64,000 nt of DNA, from sequence record OR327750.1; one strand, given 5' to 3'. This stretch comes from Escherichia phage KK4. This document shows positions 14 to 59,469 of the stretch, piece after piece (position 1 is the stretch's first letter; each line of letters begins with the position of its first letter). A model generated the notes under the pieces. The model ran no database searches, was not told the origin of the DNA, and worked only from the letters and a program-made list of their open reading frames with translations. Both the position numbers and the translations under genes were made by a program.

Positions 14-604
14 ATGCTCTTTACATTTTTTGATCCGATTGAATATGCGGCCAAAACGGTGAATAAAAACGCGCCGACTATTCCTATGACAGATATTTTT
101 AGAAACTATAAAGACTATTTTAAACGCGCTCTTGCGGGATACCGCTTACGTACTTATTATATCAAAGGTTCACCACGCCCGGAAGAATTAGCAAATACTA
201 TATATGGAAATCCACAGTTGTATTGGGTTTTATTGATGTGTAATGATAATTATGACCCGTATTATGGATGGATTACTTCACAAGAAGCTGCTTATCAAGC
301 ATCTATACAAAAATACAAAAATGTGGGTGGAGACCAAATAGTATATCATGTGAATGAGAACGGTGAAAAATTTTATAATTTAATATCATATGATGATAAT
401 CCATATGTTTGGTATGATAAAGGCGATAAAGCTAGAAAATATCCTCAATATGAAGGAGCACTTGCTGCGGTAGATACGTATGAAGCGGCTGTTCTTGAAA
501 ATGAAAAACTTCGTCAAATAAAAATAATAGCAAAATCAGACATCAATTCATTTATGAACGACCTTATACGTATAATGGAGAAATCTTATGGAAATGATAA
601 GTAA
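14..604 (+). CDS. 53: baseplate wedge subunit gp53
   Basis: 196 aa ORF, ATG at 14 preceded by AGGAGGG; length and sequence match my memory of T4 gp53; position immediately upstream of gene 5. Confidence 0.85.
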   Translation: MLFTFFDPIEYAAKTVNKNAPTIPMTDIFRNYKDYFKRALAGYRLRTYYIKGSPRPEELANTIYGNPQLYWVLLMCNDNYDPYYGWITSQEAAYQASIQKYKNVGGDQIVYHVNENGEKFYNLISYDDNPYVWYDKGDKARKYPQYEGALAAVDTYEAAVLENEKLRQIKIIAKSDINSFMNDLIRIMEKSYGNDK

Positions 605-2318
605 TAACCTTAATTGGTTTGTCGGTGTTGTTGAAGATAGAATGGACCCATTAAAATTAGGTCGTGTTCGCGTTCGTGTGGTTGGTCTGCATCCACCTCA
701 AAGAGCACAAGGTGATGTAATGGGTATTCCAACTGAAAAATTACCATGGATGTCAGTTATTCAACCTATAACTTCTGCAGCAATGTCAGGAATTGGAGGT
801 TCTGTTACTGGACCGGTAGAAGGAACTAGAGTTTATGGTCATTTTTTAGACAAATGGAAAACTAACGGAATTGTCCTTGGCACGTATGGCGGAATAGTTC
901 GCGAAAAACCGAATAGACTTGAAGGATTTTCTGACCCAACTGGGCAATATCCTAGACGTCTAGGAAATGATACTAACGTATTAAACCAAGGCGGAGAAGT
1001 AGGATATGATTCCTCTTCTAACGTTATTCAAGATAGTAACTTAGACACCGCAATAAATCCCGATGATAGACCACTATCAGAGATTCCAACCGATGATAAT
1101 CCAAATATGTCAATGGCTGAAATGCTTCGCCGTGATGAAGGATTAAGATTAAAAGTTTATTGGGATACTGAAGGATATCCGACAATTGGCATTGGCCATC
1201 TTATCATGAAGCAGCCAGTTCGTGATATGACTCAAATTAATAAAGTTTTATCAAAACAAGTTGGTCGTGAAATTACCGGAAATCCAGGTTCTATTACAAT
1301 GGAAGAAGCGGTAACTTTATTTGAACGTGATTTAGCTGATATGCAACGCGACATTAAATCGCATTCTAAAGTTGGCCCAGTTTGGCAGGCAGTTAATCGT
1401 TCTCGTCAAATGGCATTAGAAAATATGGCATTTCAGATGGGTGTTGGCGGTGTAGCTAAATTTAACACAATGTTAACTGCTATGTTAGCCGGAGATTGGG
1501 AAAAAGCATATAAAGCTGGTCGTGATTCATTGTGGTATCAACAAACAAAAGGCCGTGCATCCCGTGTTACCATGATTATTCTTACAGGGAATTTGGAATC
1601 ATACGGTATTGAAGTGAAAACACCGGCTAGGTCTTTGTCAGCAATGGCTGCTACTGTGGCAAAGTCTTCTGATCCAGCTGACCCTCCTATTCCGAATGAT
1701 TCGAGAATTTTATTTAAAGAACCTGTTTCTTCATATAAAGGTGAATATCCGTATGTTCACACAATGGAAACTGAAAGCGGTCATATTCAGGAATTTGACG
1801 ATACCCCGGGACAAGAACGATACAGATTAGTTCATCCGACTGGAACATATGAGGAAGTATCACCGTCAGGAAGAAGAACAAGAAAAACTGTTGATAATTT
1901 GTATGATATAACAAATGCTGATGGTAATTTTTTGGTAGCTGGCGATAAAAAGACTAACGTCGGTGGGTCAGAAATTTATTACAACATGGATAATCGTCTC
2001 CACCAAATAGATGGAAGCAATACAATATTTGTACGTGGCGATGAAACTAAGACAGTTGAAGGTAATGGAACTATCCTAGTCAAAGGTAATGTTACTATTG
2101 TAGTTGAAGGTAATGCTGACATTACAGTTAAAGGAGATGCTACCACTTTAGTTGAAGGAAATCAAACTAACACAGTAAATGGAAATCTTTCTTGGAAAGT
2201 TGCTGGGACAGTTGATTGGGACGTTGGTGGTGATTGGACAGAAAAAATGGCATCTATGAGTTCTATTTCATCTGGTCAATACACAATTGATGGTAGCCGT
2301 ATAGACGTAGGTTTATAA
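588..2318 (+). CDS. 5: baseplate central spike / tail lysozyme gp5
   Basis: 576 aa; central lysozyme domain (EGLRLKVYWDTEGYPTIGIGHL, cf. T4 lysozyme); C-terminal VxGxxxxx beta-helix repeats; T4 gp5 is 575 aa. Confidence 0.95.
   Translation: MEMISNNLNWFVGVVEDRMDPLKLGRVRVRVVGLHPPQRAQGDVMGIPTEKLPWMSVIQPITSAAMSGIGGSVTGPVEGTRVYGHFLDKWKTNGIVLGTYGGIVREKPNRLEGFSDPTGQYPRRLGNDTNVLNQGGEVGYDSSSNVIQDSNLDTAINPDDRPLSEIPTDDNPNMSMAEMLRRDEGLRLKVYWDTEGYPTIGIGHLIMKQPVRDMTQINKVLSKQVGREITGNPGSITMEEAVTLFERDLADMQRDIKSHSKVGPVWQAVNRSRQMALENMAFQMGVGGVAKFNTMLTAMLAGDWEKAYKAGRDSLWYQQTKGRASRVTMIILTGNLESYGIEVKTPARSLSAMAATVAKSSDPADPPIPNDSRILFKEPVSSYKGEYPYVHTMETESGHIQEFDDTPGQERYRLVHPTGTYEEVSPSGRRTRKTVDNLYDITNADGNFLVAGDKKTNVGGSEIYYNMDNRLHQIDGSNTIFVRGDETKTVEGNGTILVKGNVTIVVEGNADITVKGDATTLVEGNQTNTVNGNLSWKVAGTVDWDVGGDWTEKMASMSSISSGQYTIDGSRIDVGL
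2040..2250 (+). repeat. octapeptide (VxGxxxxx) beta-helix repeat region inside gene 5
   Basis: translated repeats VEGNGTILVKGNVTIVVEGNADITVKGDATTLVEGNQTNTVNGN; approximate boundaries. Confidence 0.55.
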
Positions 2319-2321
2319 ATA
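2314..2321 (+). promoter_or_regulatory. T4-type late promoter motif TATAAATA
   Basis: exact TATAAATA overlapping the gene 5 stop codon, 15 bp upstream of the homing endonuclease ATG, followed by GAGGTGA Shine-Dalgarno. Confidence 0.55.
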
Positions 2322-2336
2322 ATTCAGAGGTGAATT

Positions 2337-3203
2337 ATGAAAAAATCTAACACAGTTCAATTTAGATACATATATAAAACAACCGTTACTAATCCGAAAG
2401 GATTAGTACGTGTTTATATTGGTAAACATGAATCTAGATATTTTGATTTAGAAAATGACAAGTATATAGGTTCCGGTGATTATATTAAAAAGATACGCAA
2501 TAAACCTGGTTATAAAATAGATTTTGAAATAATTGAATTTGTTTCTACTTATGAAATTCTTAATTTAAGAGAAAGGTATTGGATTTCGAAATATAAATCA
2601 TCTGACATTCTATGTACCAATATAAAATCCGGCGGTGATGGTTTTTCATCCGAAGATTTGAAGAGAATGTGGTCTAATCCTGAATATAGGAAAGCTCAAT
2701 TGAAGGCATTAGCTAAATCAACGTCAACTAAAGAATTTTCAGAGAAAATATCTAAAATAAACAAAGAAAGATGCGCATCACCAGAATATCGAAAGAAAAT
2801 GAGTAATGCGATGAAAACTGCTTTTGAAAATGATCCAACATTAAAAATTCGTATTTCTAATACTGTTAAATCTTTATGGAAATCCGATGAATACAGAAAC
2901 AAATTAATCAATCATCCAGGAAAAATAGAAGGAACTAAACAATCATGGAATGATCCTTTGATAAGAAAATCGAGATTAGATGCTAGAAATAAAAAACTAA
3001 GATCAGTTGAACCTTGGATTAGTATAGAAAAAGTCAAAAAACTTTGGGAGGATTTGGGAAAACCACATCCGCAGAAATACAAATGGTTTAGAGAAAAAGC
3101 AATTGAACGTGATCTCCCGGATGTAAGTTATAACGCAATTTTAAAAGCGTTGAAAAAATGTGATTATAAATTTACATCATTAGAGAATTCAACAATTGGC
3201 TAA
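2337..3203 (+). CDS. free-standing GIY-YIG homing endonuclease (seg-like), with NUMOD3-like C-terminal repeats
   Basis: N-terminus YIYK...(13 aa)...YIGK, then R, then RERYWISKY (cf. I-TevI ERENFWIKEL) and N in TNIKSGGDG; C-terminal repeats SNPEYRKAQLKALAK / ASPEYRKKMSNAMK / KSDEYRNKLINH resemble NUMOD3 DNA-binding motifs. Confidence 0.8.
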   Translation: MKKSNTVQFRYIYKTTVTNPKGLVRVYIGKHESRYFDLENDKYIGSGDYIKKIRNKPGYKIDFEIIEFVSTYEILNLRERYWISKYKSSDILCTNIKSGGDGFSSEDLKRMWSNPEYRKAQLKALAKSTSTKEFSEKISKINKERCASPEYRKKMSNAMKTAFENDPTLKIRISNTVKSLWKSDEYRNKLINHPGKIEGTKQSWNDPLIRKSRLDARNKKLRSVEPWISIEKVKKLWEDLGKPHPQKYKWFREKAIERDLPDVSYNAILKALKKCDYKFTSLENSTIG

Positions 3204-3237
3204 TATACTTCCAATGAGCGCTGATTTAGGAGAATCC

Positions 3238-3732
3238 ATGGAAGGTTCTTCTATCGACGTCACCTTTACCGCTCAATTAGAAACAGGTGAAACGTTAGTA
3301 TCTATAAATATAACTAGTTACGAAGAAACTCCTGGGGTTTTAGTAGAAGAAAATCGCTTATATGGAACATATGAATCTGTGTTTGGATTTGGAAATGACG
3401 CGTTGAAATATCGTTTAGGCGATGAATTTAAAACTGCTGCTTCATGGGAAGAACTTCCTACTGATTCTGATACTCAGTTGTATTTGTGGAAAGCTCCTCA
3501 AAATCTCCAGAAGACATTCACTTACGAAGTAACATTAATATATGACTACCAAGAACAAAGTGAATCTGGAGGTTCTGGCAGTAATTCTAGATCATCTTCT
3601 GATACTACTGAACCGACAGATCCTCCTGCTCCAGTAAGAAAAACTCTAGTTAAAAATTACACAAAAACTATAGTTGGAAATTGGAGTCGTTGGGCTAATA
3701 AATTAAGAAGCTATGTGTATGAGAGGCAATAA
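3238..3732 (+). CDS. hypothetical protein (5.1-like position between gene 5 and 5.4)
   Basis: ORF-track start at 3196 is TTG; ATG at 3238 has AGGAGA 5 nt upstream (alternative ATG at 3214); Ser/Thr/Pro-rich segment [25 protein letters not shown]. Confidence 0.5.
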
Positions 3733-4026
3733 ATGTCAGGATTGAGTTATGATAAGTGTGTTACTGCTGGCCATGAAGCGTGGCCTCCAACAGTTGTGAA
3801 TGCTACGCAAAGTAAAGTATTCACTGGAGGAATTGCTGTTCTAGTAGCAGGCGATCCAATTACAGAACATACAGAAATTAAAAAGCCATATGAAACACAT
3901 GGCGGAGTGACACAACCTAGAACTTCTAAGGTATATGTCACTGGAAAGAAAGCTGTTCAAATGGCTGATCCAATATCATGTGGTGATACTGTGGCTCAGG
4001 CATCATCTAAAGTATTCATTAAATAG
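3733..4026 (+). CDS. 5.4: PAAR-repeat spike tip protein gp5.4
   Basis: 97 aa, same length as T4 gp5.4; sits between gene 5 and gene 6. Confidence 0.8.
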
Positions 4027-4034
4027 GATTTAAA

Positions 4035-6017
4035 ATGGCAAATACCCCTGTAAATTATCAATTAACAAGAACAGCAAATGCTATTCCCGAGATATTCGTC
4101 GGGGGTACGTTTGCTGAAATAAAACAAAACCTCATTGAATGGCTTAATGGCCAAAATGAATTTTTGGATTATGATTTTGAAGGCTCAAGATTAAACGTTC
4201 TGTGTGACCTTTTGGCTTATAATACGCTGTACATTCAGCAGTTTGGTAATGCTGCTGTATATGAAAGCTTTATGCGTACTGCTAACTTACGAAGCTCAGT
4301 TGTTCAAGCTGCACAAGATAACGGATATTTACCTACTTCAAAATCCGCTGCGCAAACCGAAATTATGTTAACATGCACCGACGCATTGAATAGGAATTAC
4401 ATTACAATTCCTCGCGGAACTCGCTTTTTAGCATATGCAAAAGATACTTCTGTTAATCCATATAACTTCGTTTCTACCGAAGACGTTATTGCTATTCGTG
4501 ATAAAAATAACCAATATTTTCCACGTTTAAAATTGGCCCAGGGACGTATAGTAAGAACTGAAATCATTTATGATAAATTAACACCTATTATCATTTATGA
4601 TAAAAATATTGATAGAAACCAGGTTAAATTATATGTTGATGGAGCGGAATGGATTAACTGGACGAGAAAGTCAATGGTTCATGCTGGTTCAACATCAACG
4701 ATTTACTATATGCGTGAAACTATTGATGGAAACACTGAATTCTATTTTGGTGAAGGTGAAATTTCTGTTAATGCTTCTGAAGGAGCTTTGACTGCCAATT
4801 ATATCGGAGGTCTTAAACCTACTCAGAACTCTACGATTGTTATTGAGTACATCAGTACTAATGGTGCTGACGCGAACGGAGCAGTAGGATTTTCATACGC
4901 AGATACATTAACAAATATAACTGTCATCAATATTAATGAAAATCCAAACGGTGACCCAGATTTTGTTGGGGCAGATGGAGGCGGTGATCCAGAAGATATT
5001 GAGCGTATTCGCGAATTGGGTACTATTAAACGCGAAACACAGCAACGATGCGTAACTGCGACTGATTATGATACATTCGTTTCAGAGAGATTCGGTTCTA
5101 TTATTCAGGCAGTTCAGACTTTCACTGATTCTACTAAACCTGGGTATGCATTTATTGCTGCTAAACCTAAATCAGGTCTGTATTTAACTACCGTACAGCG
5201 TGAAGATATTAAAAATTATCTCAAAGACTATAATTTAGCTCCTATTACGCCATCAATTATTTCTCCTAATTATCTTTTTATTAAGACTAATTTAAAAGTC
5301 ACATATGCTTTAAATAAACTGCAAGAATCCGAACAGTGGCTTGAAGGTCAAATAATTGATAAAATTGATCGCTATTATACCGAAGATGTAGAAATTTTTA
5401 ACTCATCTTTCGCTAAATCTAAGATGTTAACTTATGTAGATGATGCAGATCATTCTGTCATCGGTTCATCAGCGACTATTCAAATGGTTCGTGAAGTACA
5501 AAACTTCTATAAAACACCTGAAGCAGGTATTAAATACAATAATCAAATAAAAGATCGTTCTATGGAATCTAATACGTTTTCATTTAATTCTGGACGAAAG
5601 GTTGTAAATCCTGATACTGGTTTAGAAGAAGATGTATTATATGACGTTCGTATAGTATCAACAGACCGAGATTCTAAAGGAATTGGTAAAGTTATTATTG
5701 GTCCATTTGCTTCTGGCGATGTTACAGAAAATGAAAACATTCAGCCGTATACAGGCAACGATTTTAACAAATTAGCAAATTCTGATGGACGCGACAAATA
5801 CTATGTTATCGGTGAAATAAATTATCCGGCTGACATGATTTATTGGAATATCGCTAAAATTAATTTAACATCTGAAAAATTTGAGGTTCAGACTATTGAA
5901 TTATATTCTGACCCAACCGATGATGTTATCTTTACCCGTGATGGTTCACTGATTGTATTTGAAAATGATTTACGTCCGCAATACTTAACTATCGATTTGG
6001 AGCCTATATCACAATGA
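4035..6017 (+). CDS. 6: baseplate wedge subunit gp6
   Basis: 660 aa, same as T4 gp6; conserved gene order. Confidence 0.9.
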   Translation: MANTPVNYQLTRTANAIPEIFVGGTFAEIKQNLIEWLNGQNEFLDYDFEGSRLNVLCDLLAYNTLYIQQFGNAAVYESFMRTANLRSSVVQAAQDNGYLPTSKSAAQTEIMLTCTDALNRNYITIPRGTRFLAYAKDTSVNPYNFVSTEDVIAIRDKNNQYFPRLKLAQGRIVRTEIIYDKLTPIIIYDKNIDRNQVKLYVDGAEWINWTRKSMVHAGSTSTIYYMRETIDGNTEFYFGEGEISVNASEGALTANYIGGLKPTQNSTIVIEYISTNGADANGAVGFSYADTLTNITVININENPNGDPDFVGADGGGDPEDIERIRELGTIKRETQQRCVTATDYDTFVSERFGSIIQAVQTFTDSTKPGYAFIAAKPKSGLYLTTVQREDIKNYLKDYNLAPITPSIISPNYLFIKTNLKVTYALNKLQESEQWLEGQIIDKIDRYYTEDVEIFNSSFAKSKMLTYVDDADHSVIGSSATIQMVREVQNFYKTPEAGIKYNNQIKDRSMESNTFSFNSGRKVVNPDTGLEEDVLYDVRIVSTDRDSKGIGKVIIGPFASGDVTENENIQPYTGNDFNKLANSDGRDKYYVIGEINYPADMIYWNIAKINLTSEKFEVQTIELYSDPTDDVIFTRDGSLIVFENDLRPQYLTIDLEPISQ

Positions 6018-13503: not shown

Positions 13504-15050
13504 GTAACAATACATATCAGCACGTATCAAATGAATCAAAATATGTTAAATTCGATCCAGTAGGATCGAATTTTCCTGACACTGTCACGACAGTGCAGTC
13601 TGCATTATCAAAAATAAGTAATATCGGCGTAAATGGTATTCCTGATGCAACTATGGAAGTTAAAGGAATAGCAATGATCGCGTCAGAGCAAGAGGTTTTA
13701 GATGGAACAAATAATTCTAAAATCGTTACACCAGCTACATTAGCAACAAGATTATTGTATCCAAACGCTACTGAAACTAAATATGGTTTAACGCGTTATT
13801 CAACAAATGAAGAAACATTACAAGGCTCAGATAATAATTCATCAATAACGCCGCAAAAACTGAAATACCACACTGACGATGTGTTCCAAAATAGATATTC
13901 GTCTGAGTCATCAAACGGGGTTATTAAAATATCATCTACACCTGCAGCTTTAGCTGGAGTTGATGATACTACGGCAATGACTCCATTAAAAACACAAAAA
14001 CTTGCAATAAAATTAATTTCACAAATAGCTCCTTCCGAAGATACTGCATCAGAATCTGTGAGAGGTGTAGTTCAATTATCTACTGTTGCGCAAACTCGTC
14101 AAGGAACTCTCCGCGAAGGATATGCAATTTCTCCGTATACCTTTATGAATTCTGTTGCAACACAAGAATATAAGGGTGTTATACGTTTAGGAACACAATC
14201 GGAAATTAACAGTAATTTAGGAGATGTTGCAGTAACAGGTGAAACACTAAATGGTCGAGGAGCTACTGGTTCTATGCGCGGAGTAGTTAAATTAACGACG
14301 CAAGCCGGTATTGCCCCTGAAGGTGATAGTTCTGGAGCATTAGCATGGAACGCAGATGTAATTAATACTCGTGGTGGACAAACTATTAATGGTTCTTTAA
14401 ATTTAGACCATCTTACAGCAAACGGAATTTGGTCGCGCGGCGGAATGTGGAAAAATGGCGATCAACCTGTTGCCACTGAAAGATACGCGTCCGAAAGAAT
14501 TCCAGTTGGGACTATTATGATGTTTGCAGGTGATTCAGCACCTCCTGGTTGGCTTATGTGCCATGGTGGAACCGTGTCAGGTGACCAATTTCCTGATTAT
14601 AGAAACGTAGTTGGAGGAAGATTTGGTGGGGATTGGAATAATCCAGGGATTCCTGATATGCGAGGTCTTTTCGTCAGAGGAGCCGGCACAGGCGGTCATA
14701 TTTTAAATCAACGTGGACAAGATGGCTATGGAAAGGATAGACTGGGCGTAGGATGTGACGGAATGCATGTTGGTGGTGTTCAGACACAACAAATGTCATA
14801 CCATAAACACGCTGGTGGTTGGGGAGAATACCAAAGACATGAAGCTCCATTTGGCGCGTCCGTTTATCAAGGATATCTTGGAACTAGAAAATATTCCGAC
14901 TGGGATAATGCTTCATACTTCACTAATGATGGATTTGAATTAGGTGGACCGAGAGATGCTCTCGGTACACTTAATCGTGAAGGATTAATTGGTTATGAAA
15001 CTAGACCATGGAATATATCATTAAACTATATTATTAAAGTTCATTACTAA
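13500..15050 (+). CDS. 12: short tail fiber gp12
   Basis: 516 aa; N-terminus [20 protein letters not shown] recognised as gp12. Confidence 0.9.
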
Positions 15051-16517
<1,467 letters not shown>

Positions 16518-29432: not shown

Positions 29433-29447
29433 TCTTTGACGATTTAA

Positions 29448-29463
29448 GGGACCTTCGGGTCCC
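29448..29463 (+). terminator. tetraloop hairpin after gene 23
   Basis: GGGACC-TTCG-GGTCCC perfect stem, followed by T-rich TTTAGTTGTTTTTA. Confidence 0.5.
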
Positions 29464-29480
29464 TTTAGTTGTTTTTATGG

Positions 29481-29488
29481 TATAAATA
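29481..29488 (+). promoter_or_regulatory. late promoter motif TATAAATA upstream of gene 24
   Basis: exact TATAAATA 28 bp upstream of the gene 24 ATG. Confidence 0.55.
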
Positions 29489-29515
29489 AATCATATAAAC
29501 CAAAAGGAAAGCGCA

Positions 29516-34548: not shown

Positions 34549-34577
34549 TAGATATATTTATTACATGGTATTTAGAC

Positions 34578-36089
34578 ATGACTGACATTAAAGTACATTT
34601 TTATGATTTTAGTCACGTGAGAATTGATTGTGAAGAAAGTACATTTCATGAACTCCGTGATTTCTTTAGCTTTGAAGCTGATGGGTATCGTTTTAATCCG
34701 AAATACAAATATGGTCACTGGGATGGACGAATCCGTCTTTTAGATTATAATCGTCTTCTTCCATTTGGCTTAGTCGGGCAAATTAAAAAGTTCTGTGATA
34801 ACTTTGGCTATAAAGCCTGGATTGACCCGCAAATTAACGAAAAAGAAGAATTATCAAGAAAAGATTTTGATGAATGGCTTTCTAAATTAGAAATCTATTC
34901 AGGAAATAAAAGAATTGAACCGCACTGGTATCAAAAAGATGCAGTGTTCGAAGGATTAGTTAATCGTCGTAGAATTCTTAATCTTCCAACATCTGCAGGT
35001 AAATCTTTAATTCAAGCTTTGCTTGCGCGATATTATTTGGAAAATTATGAAGGTAAAATTCTTATCATTGTTCCAACAACTGCTCTGACAACTCAGATGG
35101 CTGATGACTTCGTTGACTATCGTTTATTCAGTCATGCAATGATAAAGAAAATTGGCGGCGGAGCATCAAAAGATGATAAATATAAAAATGACGCACCAGT
35201 CGTTGTTGGTACATGGCAAACTGTAGTTAAACAACCGAAAGAATGGTTCTCACAGTTTGGAATGATGATGAATGATGAATGTCATCTTGCTACAGGAAAA
35301 AGTATTTCATCTATCATATCAGGTTTAAATAACTGCATGTTTAAATTTGGTTTGTCTGGTTCATTACGTGATGGCAAAGCTAATATCATGCAGTATGTTG
35401 GAATGTTTGGTGAAATATTTAAGCCAGTAACGACTTCTAAATTAATGGAAGATGGACAAGTAACTGAGCTAAAAATTAATAGTATTTTTCTTCGCTATCC
35501 AGATGAGTTCACTACTAAATTAAAGGGAAAAACTTATCAAGAAGAAATAAAAATTATTACTGGGCTCAGTAAAAGAAATAAATGGATCGCTAAATTAGCT
35601 ATTAAGCTTGCGCAAAAAGATGAAAACGCTTTTGTCATGTTTAAACATGTATCACATGGTAAAGCTATTTTCGATTTAATTAAAAACGAATACGATAAAG
35701 TTTATTACGTATCAGGGGAAGTTGATACCGAAACCCGCAATATAATGAAAACCTTAGCTGAAAATGGTAAAGGAATAATTATAGTAGCTAGTTATGGTGT
35801 ATTTTCTACTGGTATTTCAGTTAAAAATCTGCATCACGTTGTTTTAGCGCACGGTGTTAAATCAAAAATCATTGTATTACAAACAATCGGTCGTGTATTA
35901 CGTAAGCATGGTTCTAAGACAATAGCAACCGTCTGGGACCTCATAGATGATTGTGGTGTTAAGCCAAAATCTGCTAATACGAAAAAGAAATATGTTCATT
36001 TGAACTATCTTTTAAAACACGGCATTGATCGTATTCAGCGCTACGCAGATGAAAAATTTAATTACGTAATGAAAACAGTTAATTTATAA
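34578..36089 (+). CDS. uvsW: UvsW SF2 DNA/RNA helicase
   Basis: 503 aa; Walker A LPTSAGKS, motif II DECH, motif VI QTIGRVLR. Confidence 0.92.
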   Translation: MTDIKVHFYDFSHVRIDCEESTFHELRDFFSFEADGYRFNPKYKYGHWDGRIRLLDYNRLLPFGLVGQIKKFCDNFGYKAWIDPQINEKEELSRKDFDEWLSKLEIYSGNKRIEPHWYQKDAVFEGLVNRRRILNLPTSAGKSLIQALLARYYLENYEGKILIIVPTTALTTQMADDFVDYRLFSHAMIKKIGGGASKDDKYKNDAPVVVGTWQTVVKQPKEWFSQFGMMMNDECHLATGKSISSIISGLNNCMFKFGLSGSLRDGKANIMQYVGMFGEIFKPVTTSKLMEDGQVTELKINSIFLRYPDEFTTKLKGKTYQEEIKIITGLSKRNKWIAKLAIKLAQKDENAFVMFKHVSHGKAIFDLIKNEYDKVYYVSGEVDTETRNIMKTLAENGKGIIIVASYGVFSTGISVKNLHHVVLAHGVKSKIIVLQTIGRVLRKHGSKTIATVWDLIDDCGVKPKSANTKKKYVHLNYLLKHGIDRIQRYADEKFNYVMKTVNL

Positions 36090-36568: not shown

Positions 36569-36745
36569 GATTGTCTCCTCTGAATTATATATCTATTTAT
36601 AACCCCATCTTAAAACGCATTTCTTGTACACGCTTTAAACATGCTTCCATTTCTGCTAAAAGTCTAAATACTTCTTTATAATTTGTCATATTTACCCCAT
36701 ATCTCTCATATGCATATCAATGCCCATATCTTTAGAATAAAAATA

Positions 36746-45092: not shown

Positions 45093-47150
45093 CTACATTT
45101 TGAACTTTTTAGACATTCCGTTGATGTTAACCAAAGAAGCCAAGATTTGAGAAACTTCGTTTTCCTCTTCTTTTGATTCTTCTACAAGGAATTGATTAAA
45201 TCCAGCCATTGGACGAACTTCACCAGTTTCCATTAAATGGTCTCCATCATATACTGATTCTTCTAATTGTTCAGAAGGAGGAACGATTGTACCTTCGATT
45301 AGATACTTGTTATAAGCAGTTTCTTTCATAAAGTACGTACTTACTTTATTAATCTTTAGTAAAATTCCACGCGGTAGAATAACTTCAGCTTCTGATGGAA
45401 ATCCTGATAAATGACCTGGAACGATAACTTTGATTCGCTCAGCTCCTTCAATTACCATACCCACGCTAGTTTCAGCATCTTCATTAGCATATGTAGAATG
45501 ACTACCCATATGCATCAAATCTTCTGCATCAACGGAACCTTCTCCTTCGCCAGAAAATACTGCGCCGGAATCATCTAGAGCCATATAGTTTTTACCGTGC
45601 TCACCGAAGATATTTGGTTTAAGCGATGTAGATACGAAGTTCTTGAAATAGAACATTTTGTTTTCAATGTTATGACGCAAAGTTTTAAAGGTAACTTCTT
45701 GTCCGCGATAAAGCGTAGTTCCTGGAGGAAGAACTGAACCTTTAGCGAATGCAGAATCCAACGTCTCGATGTGCTTAATAGCACGTTCCATATATTCTTC
45801 ACGGGTAGAATCTGGTTTACCCAAAAGGAACGAGTTCATTTCAACATATGAATCTGCGCAATAATCTTCAATTACGTCAGATTCAGCTTGAGTTAATCCT
45901 TTTGGAGTTACTTCAGTACTTGCGTATTCATATGCCTGGGCAGCAGATTCATTAATTAATTTATAAATGCCATTCATTACAAATTGAATAATAGCTGTCT
46001 TTTCATCTGGCGTGGCTTTAGAACCTTTAACTAAATCATTAATAATTTTCTTAATAACATCAAAGCTATTAGAAATATTAATATCAGCAAGATCGCTTAA
46101 AATTTTATCAGTTTTATAATCAAAGAATTCTTTATTCTTTAAATATTCTTGAGAACCTTGATATGTTATATCGCTCTGCAACTTGATAGATGGATCACGT
46201 AAACGTGCATGGGCCAATGCAATATGATTTCGGAAGCTTTCTAGTTCATAATCGTTAGATTTAAAACGAGAAGCACTTCTCATACCACCGATAGCTCCTT
46301 TGCTGAAGTTTGAACCAATCTGGATAACGCCAGAGTTCATCGGACCTTCTGCTTTATATACCGGAACTTTAGATTCAAACTCTTGATATTTCTTGGCAGC
46401 GAAGCTATCACCCTGAAGTGAAGCATCAACAGTAGAATATTGAGCTTGTGCTGCTAATCGACGACTGATTTTAGTTTTCTGAATAACAGCTTGGTCCGTG
46501 CGCTTATCATTTTCTAAAGCAATAGAAGCAGCAACAGCAACAGCTTTAGGAACAGCATTACCTGTTTTAACGTCTACATAAACATCACCGACCTTTGATT
46601 CAACTTTTGTGAATAACTCAGTTGAAATAGGAGGTACACCTGGAATGTCTTCTAAATTGGCATTTTTACGGTAAACCATAATATATGCATATTTCTTATC
46701 ATAGTCCCAGATTTCCTTTAAAAGAACATATCGACCTGCTCCTTTAGTACGTACTAAACGGTCAGCAATAACTTGCATTTGACGAGCTGCACCATTTGTT
46801 TTACTCTTTAGTACACGGAATAAGCACGCGTCAATTTTATACTGCTTCATTGTTTGAAGAGCAGTATCAAAAACAGCATTAATGACGCCAATTGGATTTC
46901 CACCCAAGTTTCTAAGCTTAACCAGCGATAATTTCTCGTTGACACCTATCATTACGATATGCATCATTTTATCGCCTGGCTTAACGTTTTTATTTGTATC
47001 ACCGCCAGAGGTGTATGTACAAAATCTAAATCCAGAAAGCACACTTTCTTCGCCGGCTTGAATAGCAAAAATTTGTGGTATTTTATGCTTAGGATTTAAG
47101 TTAACAACCGGCGCCGAAGCGCCGTCAAATAATTCTGTAATGAGTTCCAT
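45093..47150 (-). CDS. Alt-family mono-ADP-ribosyltransferase paralog (alt.-2-like position)
   Basis: 685 aa; N-terminus MELITELFD...CTYTSGGDTN parallels the adjacent Alt; C-terminal R-S-E transferase signature (TLYRGQ, FVSTSL, EAEVILPRG). Confidence 0.85.
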   Translation of the reverse strand: MELITELFDGASAPVVNLNPKHKIPQIFAIQAGEESVLSGFRFCTYTSGGDTNKNVKPGDKMMHIVMIGVNEKLSLVKLRNLGGNPIGVINAVFDTALQTMKQYKIDACLFRVLKSKTNGAARQMQVIADRLVRTKGAGRYVLLKEIWDYDKKYAYIMVYRKNANLEDIPGVPPISTELFTKVESKVGDVYVDVKTGNAVPKAVAVAASIALENDKRTDQAVIQKTKISRRLAAQAQYSTVDASLQGDSFAAKKYQEFESKVPVYKAEGPMNSGVIQIGSNFSKGAIGGMRSASRFKSNDYELESFRNHIALAHARLRDPSIKLQSDITYQGSQEYLKNKEFFDYKTDKILSDLADINISNSFDVIKKIINDLVKGSKATPDEKTAIIQFVMNGIYKLINESAAQAYEYASTEVTPKGLTQAESDVIEDYCADSYVEMNSFLLGKPDSTREEYMERAIKHIETLDSAFAKGSVLPPGTTLYRGQEVTFKTLRHNIENKMFYFKNFVSTSLKPNIFGEHGKNYMALDDSGAVFSGEGEGSVDAEDLMHMGSHSTYANEDAETSVGMVIEGAERIKVIVPGHLSGFPSEAEVILPRGILLKINKVSTYFMKETAYNKYLIEGTIVPPSEQLEESVYDGDHLMETGEVRPMAGFNQFLVEESKEEENEVSQILASLVNINGMSKKFKM

Positions 47151-56756: not shown

Positions 56757-56992
56757 AGTACGCCATACACCCTTTGTGCTTCAACTAATCCATCAAAATC
56801 CAGTTTAAGATGCGATATTTGATCGCCATCACCTGGATTCACAATTACTAATACTGAACGAGGAGTTTCGGTAATAACACGAACCGATGTTTCAGGAAAT
56901 CGTTCAGAAACCCTATTTACTAATTCCTGCGCAAATAGTTTAACTTTTTCTTGGAATTCTTTAACAGTAATTGGTTTTTCACTTAGTAGCAT
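56753..56992 (-). CDS. hypothetical protein, 79 aa (cd.x array)
   Basis: ATG start. Confidence 0.45.
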   Translation of the reverse strand: MLLSEKPITVKEFQEKVKLFAQELVNRVSERFPETSVRVITETPRSVLVIVNPGDGDQISHLKLDFDGLVEAQRVYGVL

Positions 56993-57513
56993 GTTGATCC
57001 CAGCTCCTTACTTTCAACGTTTTTAACTAATTTGACAGAAACTAATTCAGCATCTTGAGTAATCATTACCGGACCTTCTTCATACTCTTCAAGATATTCT
57101 AGAGCTTTCTTTTTAGCTTCTTCCTTCGTATCAGTTTGAGCATAGATATAAAACATACAACCAGTAATACCTACTACTTTCCACTTAATTTCTTTATCAG
57201 TTTTAATTTCAAATTTACTGACGGAATCATCTTTTTGAACTTCTTCGAAAAAAGAATATTCTAACATATAAGCAATTGAAAATAGCGGGCTAACTTTATA
57301 GGATTCTCCCATTACATCAACAGCTTTATACCAACAGTCATCAATTTCGCGTTTAATGCTAATAACATTTTTCGCAGGATCTATTTTTACTTTAAATGAA
57401 TTTTCCCCAATAAACTGGGCAATTCGTTTATTAGCCCCGCAAGTTTCATTAAAAATATCTTTATATCCAGTTTTAAAGCGATAAACCTTATCTTCTTCAA
57501 ACCATTCGCTCAT
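56983..57513 (-). CDS. hypothetical protein, 176 aa (cd.x array)
   Basis: ATG start. Confidence 0.5.
   Translation of the reverse strand: MSEWFEEDKVYRFKTGYKDIFNETCGANKRIAQFIGENSFKVKIDPAKNVISIKREIDDCWYKAVDVMGESYKVSPLFSIAYMLEYSFFEEVQKDDSVSKFEIKTDKEIKWKVVGITGCMFYIYAQTDTKEEAKKKALEYLEEYEEGPVMITQDAELVSVKLVKNVESKELGSTCY

Positions 57514-58054: not shown

Positions 58055-59465
<1,411 letters not shown>

Positions 59466-59469
<4 letters not shown>

What the first reader, a model, noticed from the sequence alone, without database searches (positions are those of the whole stretch)
2314..3203. Free-standing GIY-YIG homing endonuclease gene with its own late promoter, wedged between gene 5 and the PAAR tip gene
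The 288-aa ORF has the GIY-YIG catalytic signature (YIY...YIG, conserved Arg, RERYWISKY, Asn) and three NUMOD3-like repeats (xPEYRKxxSxAxK), the architecture of T4 Seg and I-Tev enzymes. It is preceded by an exact TATAAATA late-promoter motif overlapping the gene 5 stop, plus a GAGGTGA ribosome-binding site, and its 3' end overlaps the next ORF, as expected for an inserted selfish gene. It is the only homing endonuclease gene I can find in 64 kb, while other classical T4 insertion sites in this window look empty. At 288 aa it is longer than the T4 Seg proteins as I remember them. I recall a seg gene (segC) in the T4 gene 5-6 interval but cannot verify orthology from memory.
Basis: partly seen in the sequence, partly recalled or inferred. 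Interest (0 to 1): 0.5.

Follow-up and report, generated by a model that had tools for sequence, protein, structure and literature searches.

The report
SegF-like homing endonuclease gene cassette
This is a free-standing GIY-YIG (Seg-type) homing endonuclease gene, a selfish mobile gene, inserted into the last codons of tail-spike gene 5 of a T6-like phage; it is an expected kind of element, already labelled 'seg-like' in the T6 genome record, but apparently never characterised.

Summary
The 288-aa ORF (2337..3203) is real. The window is a T6-like Tequatrovirus, 100% identical to phage GADU22 over the 2.3-kb stretch compared. The protein itself gets no Pfam GIY-YIG or NUMOD3 hit. A profile of its homologues does hit the I-TevI catalytic domain (E 1.7e-6) and all the T4 Seg proteins. 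Its relatives pass the Pfam GIY-YIG, SegE_GIY-YIG and NUMOD3 thresholds.

It is not segC. It sits between genes 5 and 5.1, whereas segC sits between 5.1 and 5.3. Its closest T4 paralogue is SegF, at 31% identity.

Among public phage genomes, 481 carry the empty T4-type site, 29 carry the gene, and 4 carry an 851-bp deletion scar.

The mobile unit is 2294..3194. It is an in-frame 888-nt insertion plus 7 synonymous changes in the preceding gene 5 codons, and the ORF ends on the old gene 5 stop codon. A copy in a Mosigvirus backbone is flanked by short Tequatrovirus-type tracts, which indicates transfer by recombination. dN/dS is about 0.05-0.10.

The cassette also carries a conserved TATAAATA motif and an internal hairpin that covaries. 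The hairpin lies at the same position as a hairpin plus U-run in the 5' end of T4 segF, where an internal terminator has been reported.

Verdict: an ordinary, uncharacterised new member of the Seg family. Cleavage has not been tested.

The parts
588..2318 (+). Gene 5 (baseplate hub and tail lysozyme, 576 aa). Its last codons are rewritten by the cassette, so gp5 ends ...SRIDVGL* instead of the T4-type ...SRIDIG*.
   Evidence: Pfam Gp5_OB, Phage_lysozyme and Gp5_C; C-terminal comparison.
2294..3194 (+). The whole cassette. This 901-nt stretch replaces the 13 nt ATCGAGGATTGAC of HEG-less (T4-type) genomes and is the only part of this region with no match in T4.
   Evidence: Alignments; blastn of the window against the complete T4 genome.
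2294..2303 (+). Recoded gene 5 codons, GG[T AGC CGT ATA] against the T4-type GG[A TCG AGG ATT]. There are 7 substitutions, all synonymous, including a switch of Ser codon family. This is the candidate immunity recoding of the target site.
   Evidence: Found only in the 29 HEG+ and 4 scar records, never in the 481 empty sites. GGTAGCCGT is shared by all three HEG lineages.
2307..3194 (+). An 888-nt (296-codon) in-frame insertion relative to the empty site, lying between GAC and ATTGGCTAA.
2314..2321 (+). TATAAATA, the T4 late-promoter consensus, overlapping the new gene 5 stop codon.
   Evidence: Exact match. Conserved in the F2 and Logan lineages although dS is 0.9 or more. Function not tested.
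2319..2338 (+). A weak hairpin, ATAATTCA-GAGG-TGAATTAT, with the Shine-Dalgarno sequence in the loop and the AU of the AUG in the stem. A transcript starting about 6 nt after TATAAATA would lack the 5' arm.
   Evidence: Energy is -5.9 kcal/mol here, -3.6 in T6 and -0.6 in F2; the stem differs in the Logan copy, whose whole start region folds at -3.1. Tentative.
2337..3203 (+). The homing endonuclease ORF, 288 aa.
   Evidence: dN/dS 0.05-0.10.
2337..2645 (+). GIY-YIG catalytic domain (aa 1-103): Y11-I-Y13, Y27-I-G29, Y43-x-G-S-G47, E79 and N95, with a 4-residue insertion (TNPKG) in the first beta-hairpin, as in SegF.
2387..2408 (+). Hairpin inside the ORF, TACTAATCC-GAAA-GGATTAGTA (codons V-T-N-P-K-G-L-V), followed by a T-rich stretch. 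It lies at the same position as the hairpin plus UUUU found at the 5' end of T4 segF.
   Evidence: Terminator-like hit; -14 to -17.5 kcal/mol in all lineages; 5 of 9 pairs change on both sides, 95.6% of cells paired, 0 of 500 shuffles reach the score. An internal terminator in the 5' coding region of segF is stated in PMC2988022; its position is inferred here from the segF fold.
2646..2996 (+). About six degenerate NUMOD3-like helical repeats of roughly 17 aa (aa 104-220), for example SPEYRKKMSNAMK.
   Evidence: Aligned in register with the NUMOD3 units of P0008. Also matches the T4 MobD linker at E 5e-6. No Pfam NUMOD3 hit in this protein, and a small custom HMM was not significant.
2997..3200 (+). 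C-terminal domain (aa 221-288), probably a helix-turn-helix DNA-binding module.
   Evidence: Aligns with the C-termini of P0006 and P0012, which give weak Pfam I-TevI_DNA-bd hits, and with SegA aa 141-215 at 33% identity. The structure model has low confidence here.
2313..2320 (+). Left copy of the 8-bp direct repeat TTATAAAT.
3164..3171 (+). Right copy of the 8-bp direct repeat TTATAAAT. Recombination between the two copies gives the 851-bp deletion scar allele. TATAAATT at 3165-3172 is a 7-of-8 late-promoter-like motif that could serve gene 5.1.
   Evidence: The scar alleles read ...GTAGGTTTATAAATTTACATC...; coordinates.
3195..3203 (+). ATTGGCTAA, the ancestral last two codons and stop codon of gene 5, now used in frame as the last codons (I-G-stop) of the endonuclease ORF.
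   Evidence: Identical in the HEG+, scar and empty Tequatrovirus alleles compared and in F2.
3238..3732 (+). Gene 5.1 (164 aa), the real downstream neighbour.
   Evidence: T4 and T6 annotation; PHROG 1168; GGAG before the ATG.
3733..4026 (+). Gene 5.4 (PAAR spike tip). It directly abuts 5.1, so the T4 segC/5.3 site is empty here.
   Evidence: Pfam PAAR_motif.

Best explanation
The ORF encodes a modular Seg-type GIY-YIG homing endonuclease. It has an N-terminal catalytic domain, about six NUMOD3-like helical repeats, and a C-terminal DNA-binding domain.

Proposed mechanism (inferred by analogy with SegF, SegG and I-TevI):
1. When a phage carrying the gene co-infects a cell with a relative that has the empty T4-type site, the enzyme cuts the relative's DNA in or near the highly conserved end of gene 5 (...GGATCGAGGATTGAC|ATTGGCTAATATAC...).
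2. The phage recombination machinery repairs the break using the HEG+ genome as template.
3. The 901-nt cassette is copied in.

The donor is presumably protected because its site is split by the insertion and the adjacent four codons are synonymously recoded.

The cassette rewrites the gp5 C-terminus (IDIG to IDVGL) with a new stop codon. It carries a late-promoter motif over that stop codon. Its ORF finishes on the old gene 5 stop codon. A conserved hairpin early in the ORF probably attenuates expression, as reported for segF and mobE.

What is shown: family membership, the insertion boundaries, presence/absence polymorphism, transfer between backbones, purifying selection, and covariation in the hairpin.

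What is inferred: cleavage activity, where the enzyme cuts, immunity by recoding, promoter use, and terminator use.
For: Family:
- PHROG 314 'homing endonuclease', E 6.9e-26.
- The profile of the 13 homologues hits the I-TevI catalytic domain (1LN0) at E 1.7e-6 over nearly the whole domain.
- Of 67 family members, 33 hit Pfam SegE_GIY-YIG, 19 hit NUMOD3 and 17 hit GIY-YIG.
- BLASTP to P0008, which carries GIY-YIG plus four NUMOD3 units, gives 35% identity at E 1e-18.
- The family N-terminal HMM hits T4 SegB, E, C, D, A and F at 1e-27 to 1e-14 and I-TevI at 1e-11. The closest T4 paralogue is SegF (31% identity over 167 aa).

Mobility:
- 481 empty sites, 29 occupied sites and 4 scars among 50,697 phage records.
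- No SNP within 1.4 kb on either side is fixed between 7 HEG+ and 7 empty genomes. The gene therefore sits on many flanking haplotypes.
- F2 and ZQ3 carry an 85%-identical copy at the same site in a Mosigvirus backbone. It is flanked by 44 nt (left) and 18 nt (right) of Tequatrovirus-type sequence (13 diagnostic sites on the left, none of Mosigvirus type). Their close relatives ATK47 and AV114 have an empty site.
- A third lineage (78% aa identity) sits at the same site in another backbone.

Function retained: dN/dS is 0.05-0.10 between lineages and in each of the three domains. Y11, Y13, Y27-I-G29, E79 and N95 are invariant.

Regulation:
- TATAAATA is conserved in all three lineages.
- The internal hairpin has 5 of 9 covarying pairs, and a hairpin plus U-run lies at the same position in segF. 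An internal terminator in the 5' coding region of segF is reported in PMC2988022.
Against: - The protein alone gives no Pfam GIY-YIG or NUMOD3 hit at E<=10. Its NCBIfam hit to the group I intron endonuclease family is only E 0.004, far below the cut-off.
- Foldseek is not significant, although I-TevI is its top hit for the domain model (E 0.22, TM 0.43-0.48).
- No equivalent of I-TevI Arg27 can be identified. The same is true of the active T4 Seg proteins.
- No cleavage or homing data were found.
- Only about 6% of typed genomes carry the gene, which is low for an efficient drive.
- Within Tequatrovirus no co-conversion tract can be seen, because the region from 54 nt upstream of the cassette (2294) to 90 nt downstream of 3195 is invariant.
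- The recoded codons could simply have come from a distant donor rather than being selected for immunity.
- The RBS hairpin is weak and poorly conserved.
Confidence: 0.8

Rival explanations
1. The protein is intact but no longer homes. It would be a domesticated or neutral passenger that spreads only by general recombination among T-even phages. It might serve another role, for example as a DNA-binding regulator, or as a driver of recombination and amplification as recently reported for T6 SegB.
For: Only 29 of 514 typed genomes carry it. No experimental data were found. T6 SegB has a non-selfish role in amplifying anti-defence genes (PMC13096335). The T-even flanks are highly mosaic in any case.
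Against: The catalytic residues are invariant, and dN/dS is 0.065 in the nuclease domain. The gene occupies the same site in three different backbones, with short donor-type flanks in F2. The junction recoding is strictly linked to the gene or its scar.
Confidence: 0.12
2. It is the segC orthologue of this phage, the known homing endonuclease gene of the gene 5-6 interval.
For: segC does lie in the same interval in T4, between 5.1 and 5.3 (PMC2988022).
Against: The insertion site is different: 5/5.1 here, 5.1/5.3 for segC. T4_ev151, SP21535 and others carry both genes. BLASTP aligns only about 50 residues of the GIY-YIG core, at E 1e-4 to 0.002. SegF, SegB and SegA are all closer.
Confidence: 0.01
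3. It is not a GIY-YIG nuclease at all. The motifs would be chance matches in an AT-rich, lysine-rich ORF, given that Pfam finds nothing.
For: No Pfam hit. The single-sequence PDB search found nothing relevant. Foldseek was not significant.
Confidence: 0.02
4. The gene is ancestral to T-even phages at this site, and the 'empty' alleles are precise deletions. On this reading the polymorphism reflects loss rather than gain.
For: Loss does occur: four genomes carry an 851-bp deletion between 8-bp repeats. The HEG lineages are old, with dS of 0.9-2.3.
Against: The known loss product keeps the recoded gene 5 end and 32 nt of the ORF. The 481 empty sites instead have a different, unrecoded gene 5 end, which is shared in only slightly diverged form by the empty sites of a Gaprivervirus and two Mosigviruses. 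F2 shows donor-type flanks inside a Mosigvirus gene 5, which is the signature of gain.
Confidence: 0.05

Closest known systems
T4 SegF (free-standing GIY-YIG homing endonuclease between genes 56 and soc; 'intronless homing')
   Same: It is the closest T4 paralogue: 31% identity over 167 aa, E 3e-9. Both have the same extra residues in the first beta-hairpin (RTPKGV in SegF, TNPKGL here) and the motif GKHES...NDKY-x-GSG. Both have a stable hairpin with a GAAA loop at that exact position in the 5' coding region, where an internal terminator of segF has been reported (PMC2988022). Both are free-standing genes placed next to the conserved gene they are expected to target.
   Different: Identity is only 31%. 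The length is 288 aa against 224 aa, with more linker repeats here. The insertion site and presumed target differ (gene 5 end against gene 56). This gene has a TATAAATA of its own, whereas segF is described as a promoter-less cassette. The U-tract after the hairpin is weaker here.
T4 SegC (between genes 5.1 and 5.3)
   Same: It is a GIY-YIG Seg protein located in the same gene 5-6 interval, and it shares the Y-x-GSG core.
   Different: The insertion site is different, and the two genes co-occur in some phages. Only about 50 residues align. SegC has canonical NUMOD3 and I-TevI-type DNA-binding domains that Pfam detects. It is absent from this window.
I-TevI (intron-encoded GIY-YIG endonuclease of the T4 td gene)
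   Same: It has the same modular plan of a GIY-YIG domain, a linker and a C-terminal DNA-binding domain. The family profile aligns to its solved catalytic domain, with E79 matching E75 and N95 matching N90. Both have a late promoter immediately upstream, with an RBS hairpin that late transcripts would escape (PMC2988022).
   Different: This gene is free-standing, not inside an intron. There is no identifiable Arg27 equivalent and no zinc finger. The linker is made of repeated NUMOD3-like helices. The RBS hairpin here is weak.
Uncharacterised 'seg-like' ORF of phage T6 (T6ncORF142, AXN58183.1) and YP_006986703.1 of ACG-C40
   Same: This is the same gene, about 99% identical and at the same position. 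T6 is listed with 6 seg-like homing endonuclease genes in PMC2993671.
   Different: Nothing beyond a database label was found: no name, target site or activity.

Membership tests
GIY-YIG nuclease superfamily | A 'GIY' motif and a 'YIG' motif about 10-15 residues apart on a beta-hairpin. | tested here: met
   Y11-I-Y13 and Y27-I-G29 are invariant in the 13-sequence alignment, and Y13, Y27 and G29 remain invariant across 67 sequences. They are predicted on strands 9-18 and 24-33.
GIY-YIG nuclease superfamily | A catalytic Glu (I-TevI E75) and a conserved Asn (I-TevI N90). | tested here: met
   E79 and N95 are invariant. They align to the E75 and N90 positions of 1LN0 and 1MK0.
GIY-YIG nuclease superfamily | A conserved Arg after the YIG motif (I-TevI R27). 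| tested here: inconclusive
   R27 falls in an insertion relative to the family profile, and no Arg is invariant. The T4 Seg proteins, several of which are reported active (Table 1 of PMC2988022), show the same Y-x-GSG motif in place of it in their N-terminal sequences.
GIY-YIG nuclease superfamily | A significant match to a curated family model. | tested here: not met
   The protein itself gets no hit to PF01541 or PF19835 at E<=10. Its TIGR01453 score is 17 bits against a cut-off of 56. The feature is met only transitively: homologues P0006 and P0008 pass the PF01541 gathering score, 33 of 67 members hit PF19835, and the family profile hits I-TevI at E 1.7e-6.
GIY-YIG nuclease superfamily | The GIY-YIG alpha/beta fold. 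| tested here: inconclusive
Seg-type free-standing homing endonucleases of T4-like phages | The gene is free-standing (not in an intron or intein), lies between conserved phage genes, and is present or absent among close relatives. | tested here: met
   It lies between genes 5 and 5.1. Counts are 29 occupied, 481 empty and 4 scars.
Seg-type free-standing homing endonucleases of T4-like phages | Sequence homology to the T4 Seg proteins, including the Y-x-GSG motif. | tested here: met
   phmmer gives SegA 1.9e-10, SegF 2.5e-10 and SegB 9.7e-9, and the family HMM hits SegA-F.
Seg-type free-standing homing endonucleases of T4-like phages | Site-specific cleavage of the HEG-less allele and preferential inheritance of the gene (marker exclusion or co-conversion). 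| not testable with these tools
   Only indirect evidence is available: donor-type flanks of 44 and 18 nt around the copy in F2, and junction recoding strictly linked to the gene.
segC orthologue | The same insertion site (5.1/5.3) and close sequence identity to T4 SegC. | tested here: not met
   The site is 5/5.1. Both genes co-occur in T4_ev151. Only about 50 aa align, at E 1e-4 to 0.002.
NUMOD3 DNA-binding repeats | A match to Pfam PF07460. | tested here: not met
   There is no hit at E<=10, and a custom 5-unit HMM scored no better than shuffled sequences. However, aa 114-200 align unit by unit with the NUMOD3 repeats of P0008 (NUMOD3 100 bits; BLASTP E 1e-18). They are best called degenerate NUMOD3-like repeats.
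T4 late promoter | A TATAAATA element placed suitably upstream of the gene. | tested here: met
   An exact match at 2314-2321, 15 nt before the ATG, is conserved in three lineages. The motif is only about 2-fold enriched over chance in the window.
T4 late promoter | gp55-dependent transcription initiation about 6 nt downstream, late in infection. | not testable with these tools
   This needs 5'-end mapping.

The most novel reading that the evidence does not exclude
The mobile unit may be more than an endonuclease ORF. It could be a compact, self-sufficient cassette with four properties:
1. It rewrites the last codons of the essential spike gene 5, at the gp5 tip that the PAAR protein gp5.4 caps. 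It supplies a new stop codon and borrows the old one for its own ORF.
2. It carries its own target immunity, as a block of synonymous recoding.
3. It switches expression with a late promoter embedded in an RBS hairpin.
4. It limits itself with a covariation-maintained attenuator hairpin, encoded by the extra loop of the GIY-YIG beta-hairpin. That hairpin is shared with SegF and so may be a subfamily-wide RNA element.

The 851-bp deletion between the two promoter-like 8-bp repeats would then create HEG-less but cleavage-resistant alleles. That would be a directly observable 'loss with immunity' step of the homing cycle in natural T-even populations.
Probability: 0.35. Interest if true: 0.45.

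Novelty: new member of a known kind. Interest (0 to 1): 0.3.

Why it matters
It adds an uncharacterised Seg-family enzyme with a clearly defined site: the end of gene 5, which is invariant in hundreds of T-even genomes. All three allele states are available in sequenced, culturable phages: empty, occupied, and deleted but still recoded. That makes it a convenient natural system for three questions. How do free-standing homing endonucleases protect their own genome? How are they lost? How do they cross between phage genera (Tequatrovirus to Mosigvirus)? The covarying hairpin shared with segF suggests that a reported regulatory device, an internal terminator in the 5' coding region, is conserved across a Seg subfamily. 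None of this changes what is known about the kind of element. It is a tidy example, not a surprise.

Tried and rejected
- Single-sequence searches gave nothing or sub-threshold noise: Pfam on the full protein, the N-terminal part and the C-terminal part, NCBIfam, and PDB phmmer. They were replaced by family-profile searches.
- Foldseek with the full-length model found nothing. The model is poor (pTM 0.33) because of the floppy helical repeats. A domain-only model put I-TevI first, but not significantly.
- A custom NUMOD3 HMM built from five canonical units of P0008 did not score the window protein above 300 shuffled sequences. The NUMOD3 claim therefore rests on pairwise homology only.
- No HEG-linked SNPs or co-conversion tracts were found within 1.4 kb on either side in Tequatrovirus. 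The immediate flanks are invariant.
- A segC orthologue was considered and rejected.
- A second homing endonuclease in the window was looked for and rejected. The window segments with no T4 match are a divergent part of alt, a short stretch inside gene 12, and two small ORFs of PHROGs with unknown function; one further 100-nt gap at 36602-36702 was not examined.
- Literature searches for a name or study of this gene (T6ncORF142, seg-like, T6) found only counts and database labels.
- A search for the origin of T4_ev151 found nothing useful.


Full report
WHAT IS THERE. The window is a Tequatrovirus. The 2.3-kb stretch compared (1800-4100) is 100% identical to Escherichia phage GADU22 and about 98% identical to T6. 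The ORF at 2337..3203 (288 aa, ATG start) is real. It follows gene 5 (588..2318; Gp5_OB, lysozyme and Gp5_C domains). After it come gene 5.1 and only then the PAAR gene 5.4 (3733..4026). The claimed 3' overlap exists only with a mechanically called TTG start at 3196. T4 and T6 annotate 5.1 from the ATG at 3238, preceded by GGAG, which leaves the same 34-nt spacer as in T4. The TATAAATA at 2314-2321 does overlap the gene 5 stop codon, and GAGGTGA lies at 2327-2333. The motif occurs 20 times in the window against 9.4 expected by chance.

FAMILY. Taken alone, the protein gives no Pfam GIY-YIG or NUMOD3 hit, even at E<=10. It gives only a sub-threshold NCBIfam hit to the group I intron endonuclease family (E 0.004) and nothing relevant in the PDB. 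PHROG 314 'homing endonuclease' matches at 6.9e-26. A search of 5.8 billion proteins found only 13 homologues. Their alignment has invariant Y11-I-Y13, Y27-I-G29, Y43-x-G-S-G47, K56, E79 and N95. A profile of that alignment hits the solved catalytic domain of I-TevI (1LN0, E 1.7e-6), with E79 and N95 on the catalytic Glu and Asn. The same profile recovers 94,787 proteins at E<=0.001 in the representative library. Of 67 top members, 33 match Pfam SegE_GIY-YIG, 19 match NUMOD3 and 17 match GIY-YIG.

RELATION TO THE T4 ENZYMES. I extracted all T4 Seg, Mob and I-Tev proteins from the annotated T4 genome. The closest is SegF (31% identity over 167 aa), followed by SegB and SegA. SegC aligns over only about 50 residues. 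segC sits at a different site, between 5.1 and 5.3 (PMC2988022). Several phages carry both genes. This gene is therefore not the segC orthologue. At 288 aa it is longer than any T4 Seg protein (140-224 aa). The central repeats also match the linker of the HNH enzyme MobD (E 5e-6). No other T4-type homing endonuclease homologue is present in the window. The segC/5.3, segD and segE sites are empty.

INSERTION ANATOMY. Alignment with HEG-less relatives shows the following. The empty T4-type allele reads ...ATTGATGG ATCGAGGATTGAC ATTGGCTAA TATAC..., so gp5 ends IDIG*. In the window, the 13 nt ATCGAGGATTGAC are replaced by 901 nt (2294..3194). These 901 nt consist of TAGCCGTATAGAC, which encodes the same Gly-Ser-Arg-Ile-Asp with 7 synonymous changes, followed by an 888-nt in-frame insertion. 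The insertion begins GTA GGT TTA TAA, which gives gp5 the new ending IDVGL*. The endonuclease ORF is in the same frame as gene 5 and ends on the ancestral ATT GGC TAA (3195..3203). This stretch is exactly the part of the region that has no match in T4.

POPULATION. Among 50,697 phage records, the empty junction occurs in 481, the occupied left junction in 29, and a third allele in 4. The third allele (ESh36, 215Ecol030PP, LF73P3, LF73P1) keeps the recoded gene 5 end and the last 32 nt of the ORF upstream of the retained ATTGGCTAA. It is an 851-bp deletion between two 8-bp direct repeats, TTATAAAT, at 2313-2320 and 3164-3171. The recoded end was never seen without the gene or its scar. In 1.4 kb on each side, no SNP is fixed between 7 occupied and 7 empty genomes. 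The region from 54 nt upstream of the cassette (2294) to 90 nt downstream of 3195 shows no variation among them (apart from two differences in scar allele LF73P1), although about 13% of the left-flank columns vary. The empty site is nearly identical even in a Gaprivervirus.

TRANSFER BETWEEN BACKBONES. F2 and ZQ3 carry an 85%-identical copy at the same site. Their gene 5 and 5.1 are otherwise of Mosigvirus type, and their close relatives ATK47 and AV114 have the empty site. In F2, gene 5 follows the Mosigvirus sequence up to 44 nt before the cassette. It then switches to the Tequatrovirus sequence (13 of 13 diagnostic sites). To the right it returns to Mosigvirus type 18 nt after the cassette. 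That is the footprint expected of recombinational import from a Tequatrovirus-like donor. A third lineage (78% aa identity, from a Logan assembly) sits at the same site in yet another backbone. It has the same GGTAGCCGT recoding and the same TATAAATA.

SELECTION. dN/dS between lineages is 0.05-0.10, and it is similarly low in the nuclease, repeat and C-terminal parts. The protein is therefore maintained by selection, not decaying.

REGULATORY FEATURES. TATAAATA is conserved in all three lineages. Its 3' end overlaps the 5' arm of a small hairpin, ATAATTCA-GAGG-TGAATTAT (2319-2338), which holds the Shine-Dalgarno sequence in its loop. A late transcript starting about 6 nt after the motif would lack that arm. 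This is the arrangement described for I-TevI, segB and mobE (PMC2988022). The hairpin is weak, however (-5.9 kcal/mol here, -0.6 in F2), so this point is tentative.

A much stronger hairpin lies inside the ORF at 2387-2408 (codons VTNPKGLV). It was flagged as terminator-like. It is stable in all lineages, at -14 to -17.5 kcal/mol. Synonymous third-position changes on one arm are matched on the other. When T4 segF is included, 5 of 9 pairs change on both sides, 95.6% of cells pair (against 20-47% when the partners are slid), and 0 of 500 shuffles reach the covariation score. In T4 segF the same position (RTPKGV) carries GGACGCC-GAAA-GGCGUCU followed by UUUU. [quoted passage not shown] By inference this is an attenuator of the same type. 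With only five sequences the statistics are thin.

HOW IT MOST LIKELY WORKS. It is a Seg-type homing endonuclease expressed late in infection. In mixed infections it cuts the conserved empty gene 5/5.1 junction of relatives, and it is copied in by break repair. Its own genome is protected by the split and recoded site. The gene is occasionally lost by the 8-bp-repeat deletion, which leaves a recoded allele that is presumably resistant. Cleavage, the cut position, immunity, promoter use and terminator use are all inferences.

NOVELTY. The gene is already labelled 'seg-like' in the T6 record and in the vB_SsoM_113 annotation. T6 is listed with six seg-like genes (PMC2993671). I found no study of it. 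It is a new, uncharacterised member of a well-known kind, of low to moderate interest.

Noticed in passing
window 2387-2408 (also L005 F2, L025 Logan contig, and T4 segF in L021 at about 16,200-16,230 on the minus strand): There is a stable hairpin inside the endonuclease ORF, at the codons for the extra loop of the GIY-YIG beta-hairpin. It is maintained by matched synonymous changes (5 of 9 pairs covary). It lies at the same position as a hairpin plus U-run in the 5' end of T4 segF, where an internal terminator has been reported.
   Followed up: yes
L003 (ESh36) 2019-2087; L017; L018; OZ035756: Four phages carry a deletion scar: 851 bp lost between two 8-bp TTATAAAT repeats. The recoded gene 5 end and the last 32 nt of the ORF upstream of the retained ATTGGCTAA remain. 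LF73P1 combines an F2-type left junction with a T6-type right remnant, so it is either a mosaic or an independent loss.
   Followed up: yes
L005 (F2) about 1905-1992 and 2866-2885, compared with L019 (ATK47) and L020 (AV114): The copy in the Mosigvirus-backbone phage F2 is flanked by 44 nt (left) and 18 nt (right) of Tequatrovirus-type sequence. This looks like a co-conversion tract from transfer between genera.
   Followed up: yes
window about 2240-2293 and 3195-3284: There is an island of complete invariance among the Tequatrovirus genomes compared (apart from two differences in scar allele LF73P1). It runs from 54 nt before the cassette to 90 nt after it, although about 13% of the columns in the rest of gene 5 vary. 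Possible causes are constraint on the gp5 tip and the 5.1 start, or homogenisation by repeated conversion.
   Followed up: partly
L006 (T4 NC_000866) 4197-4792, compared with L002 (T4_ev151) 3421-4011: In the T4 reference, segC (140 aa) and 'gene 5.3' (56 aa) differ from a single 196-aa ORF in T4_ev151 by a 1-nt deletion inside the repeat GGGCCTAGAGGGCCTAGAGG. The 5.3 part corresponds to the I-TevI-type DNA-binding domain (Pfam PF20987, aa 150-189). T4 gene 5.3 therefore looks like the frameshifted C-terminus of SegC.
   Followed up: partly
window 3732/3733; 29443-29504; 34564-34584: The T4 insertion sites of segC/5.3, segD and segE are empty in this window. No T4-type Seg, Mob or I-Tev homologue other than the studied ORF is present.
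   Followed up: yes
window 2580-2954 (aa 82-206 of the ORF): The central helical repeats match the linker region of the HNH endonuclease MobD of T4 (29% identity over 136 aa, E 5e-6). This is consistent with DNA-binding modules being shared between GIY-YIG and HNH homing endonucleases.
   Followed up: no
window 45113-46482; 14363-14737; 56983-57513; 59149-59469: Other segments also have no T4 match. These are a divergent part of the alt ADP-ribosyltransferase gene, a stretch inside gene 12, and two small replacement ORFs (PHROG 3710 and PHROG 2364, both of unknown function). None resembles a homing endonuclease.
   Followed up: partly
window 2307-2318: The cassette changes the extreme C-terminus of the spike protein gp5 from IDIG to IDVGL (or VDVGL in F2). 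This is the tip that the PAAR protein gp5.4 caps. No consequence was assessed.
   Followed up: no
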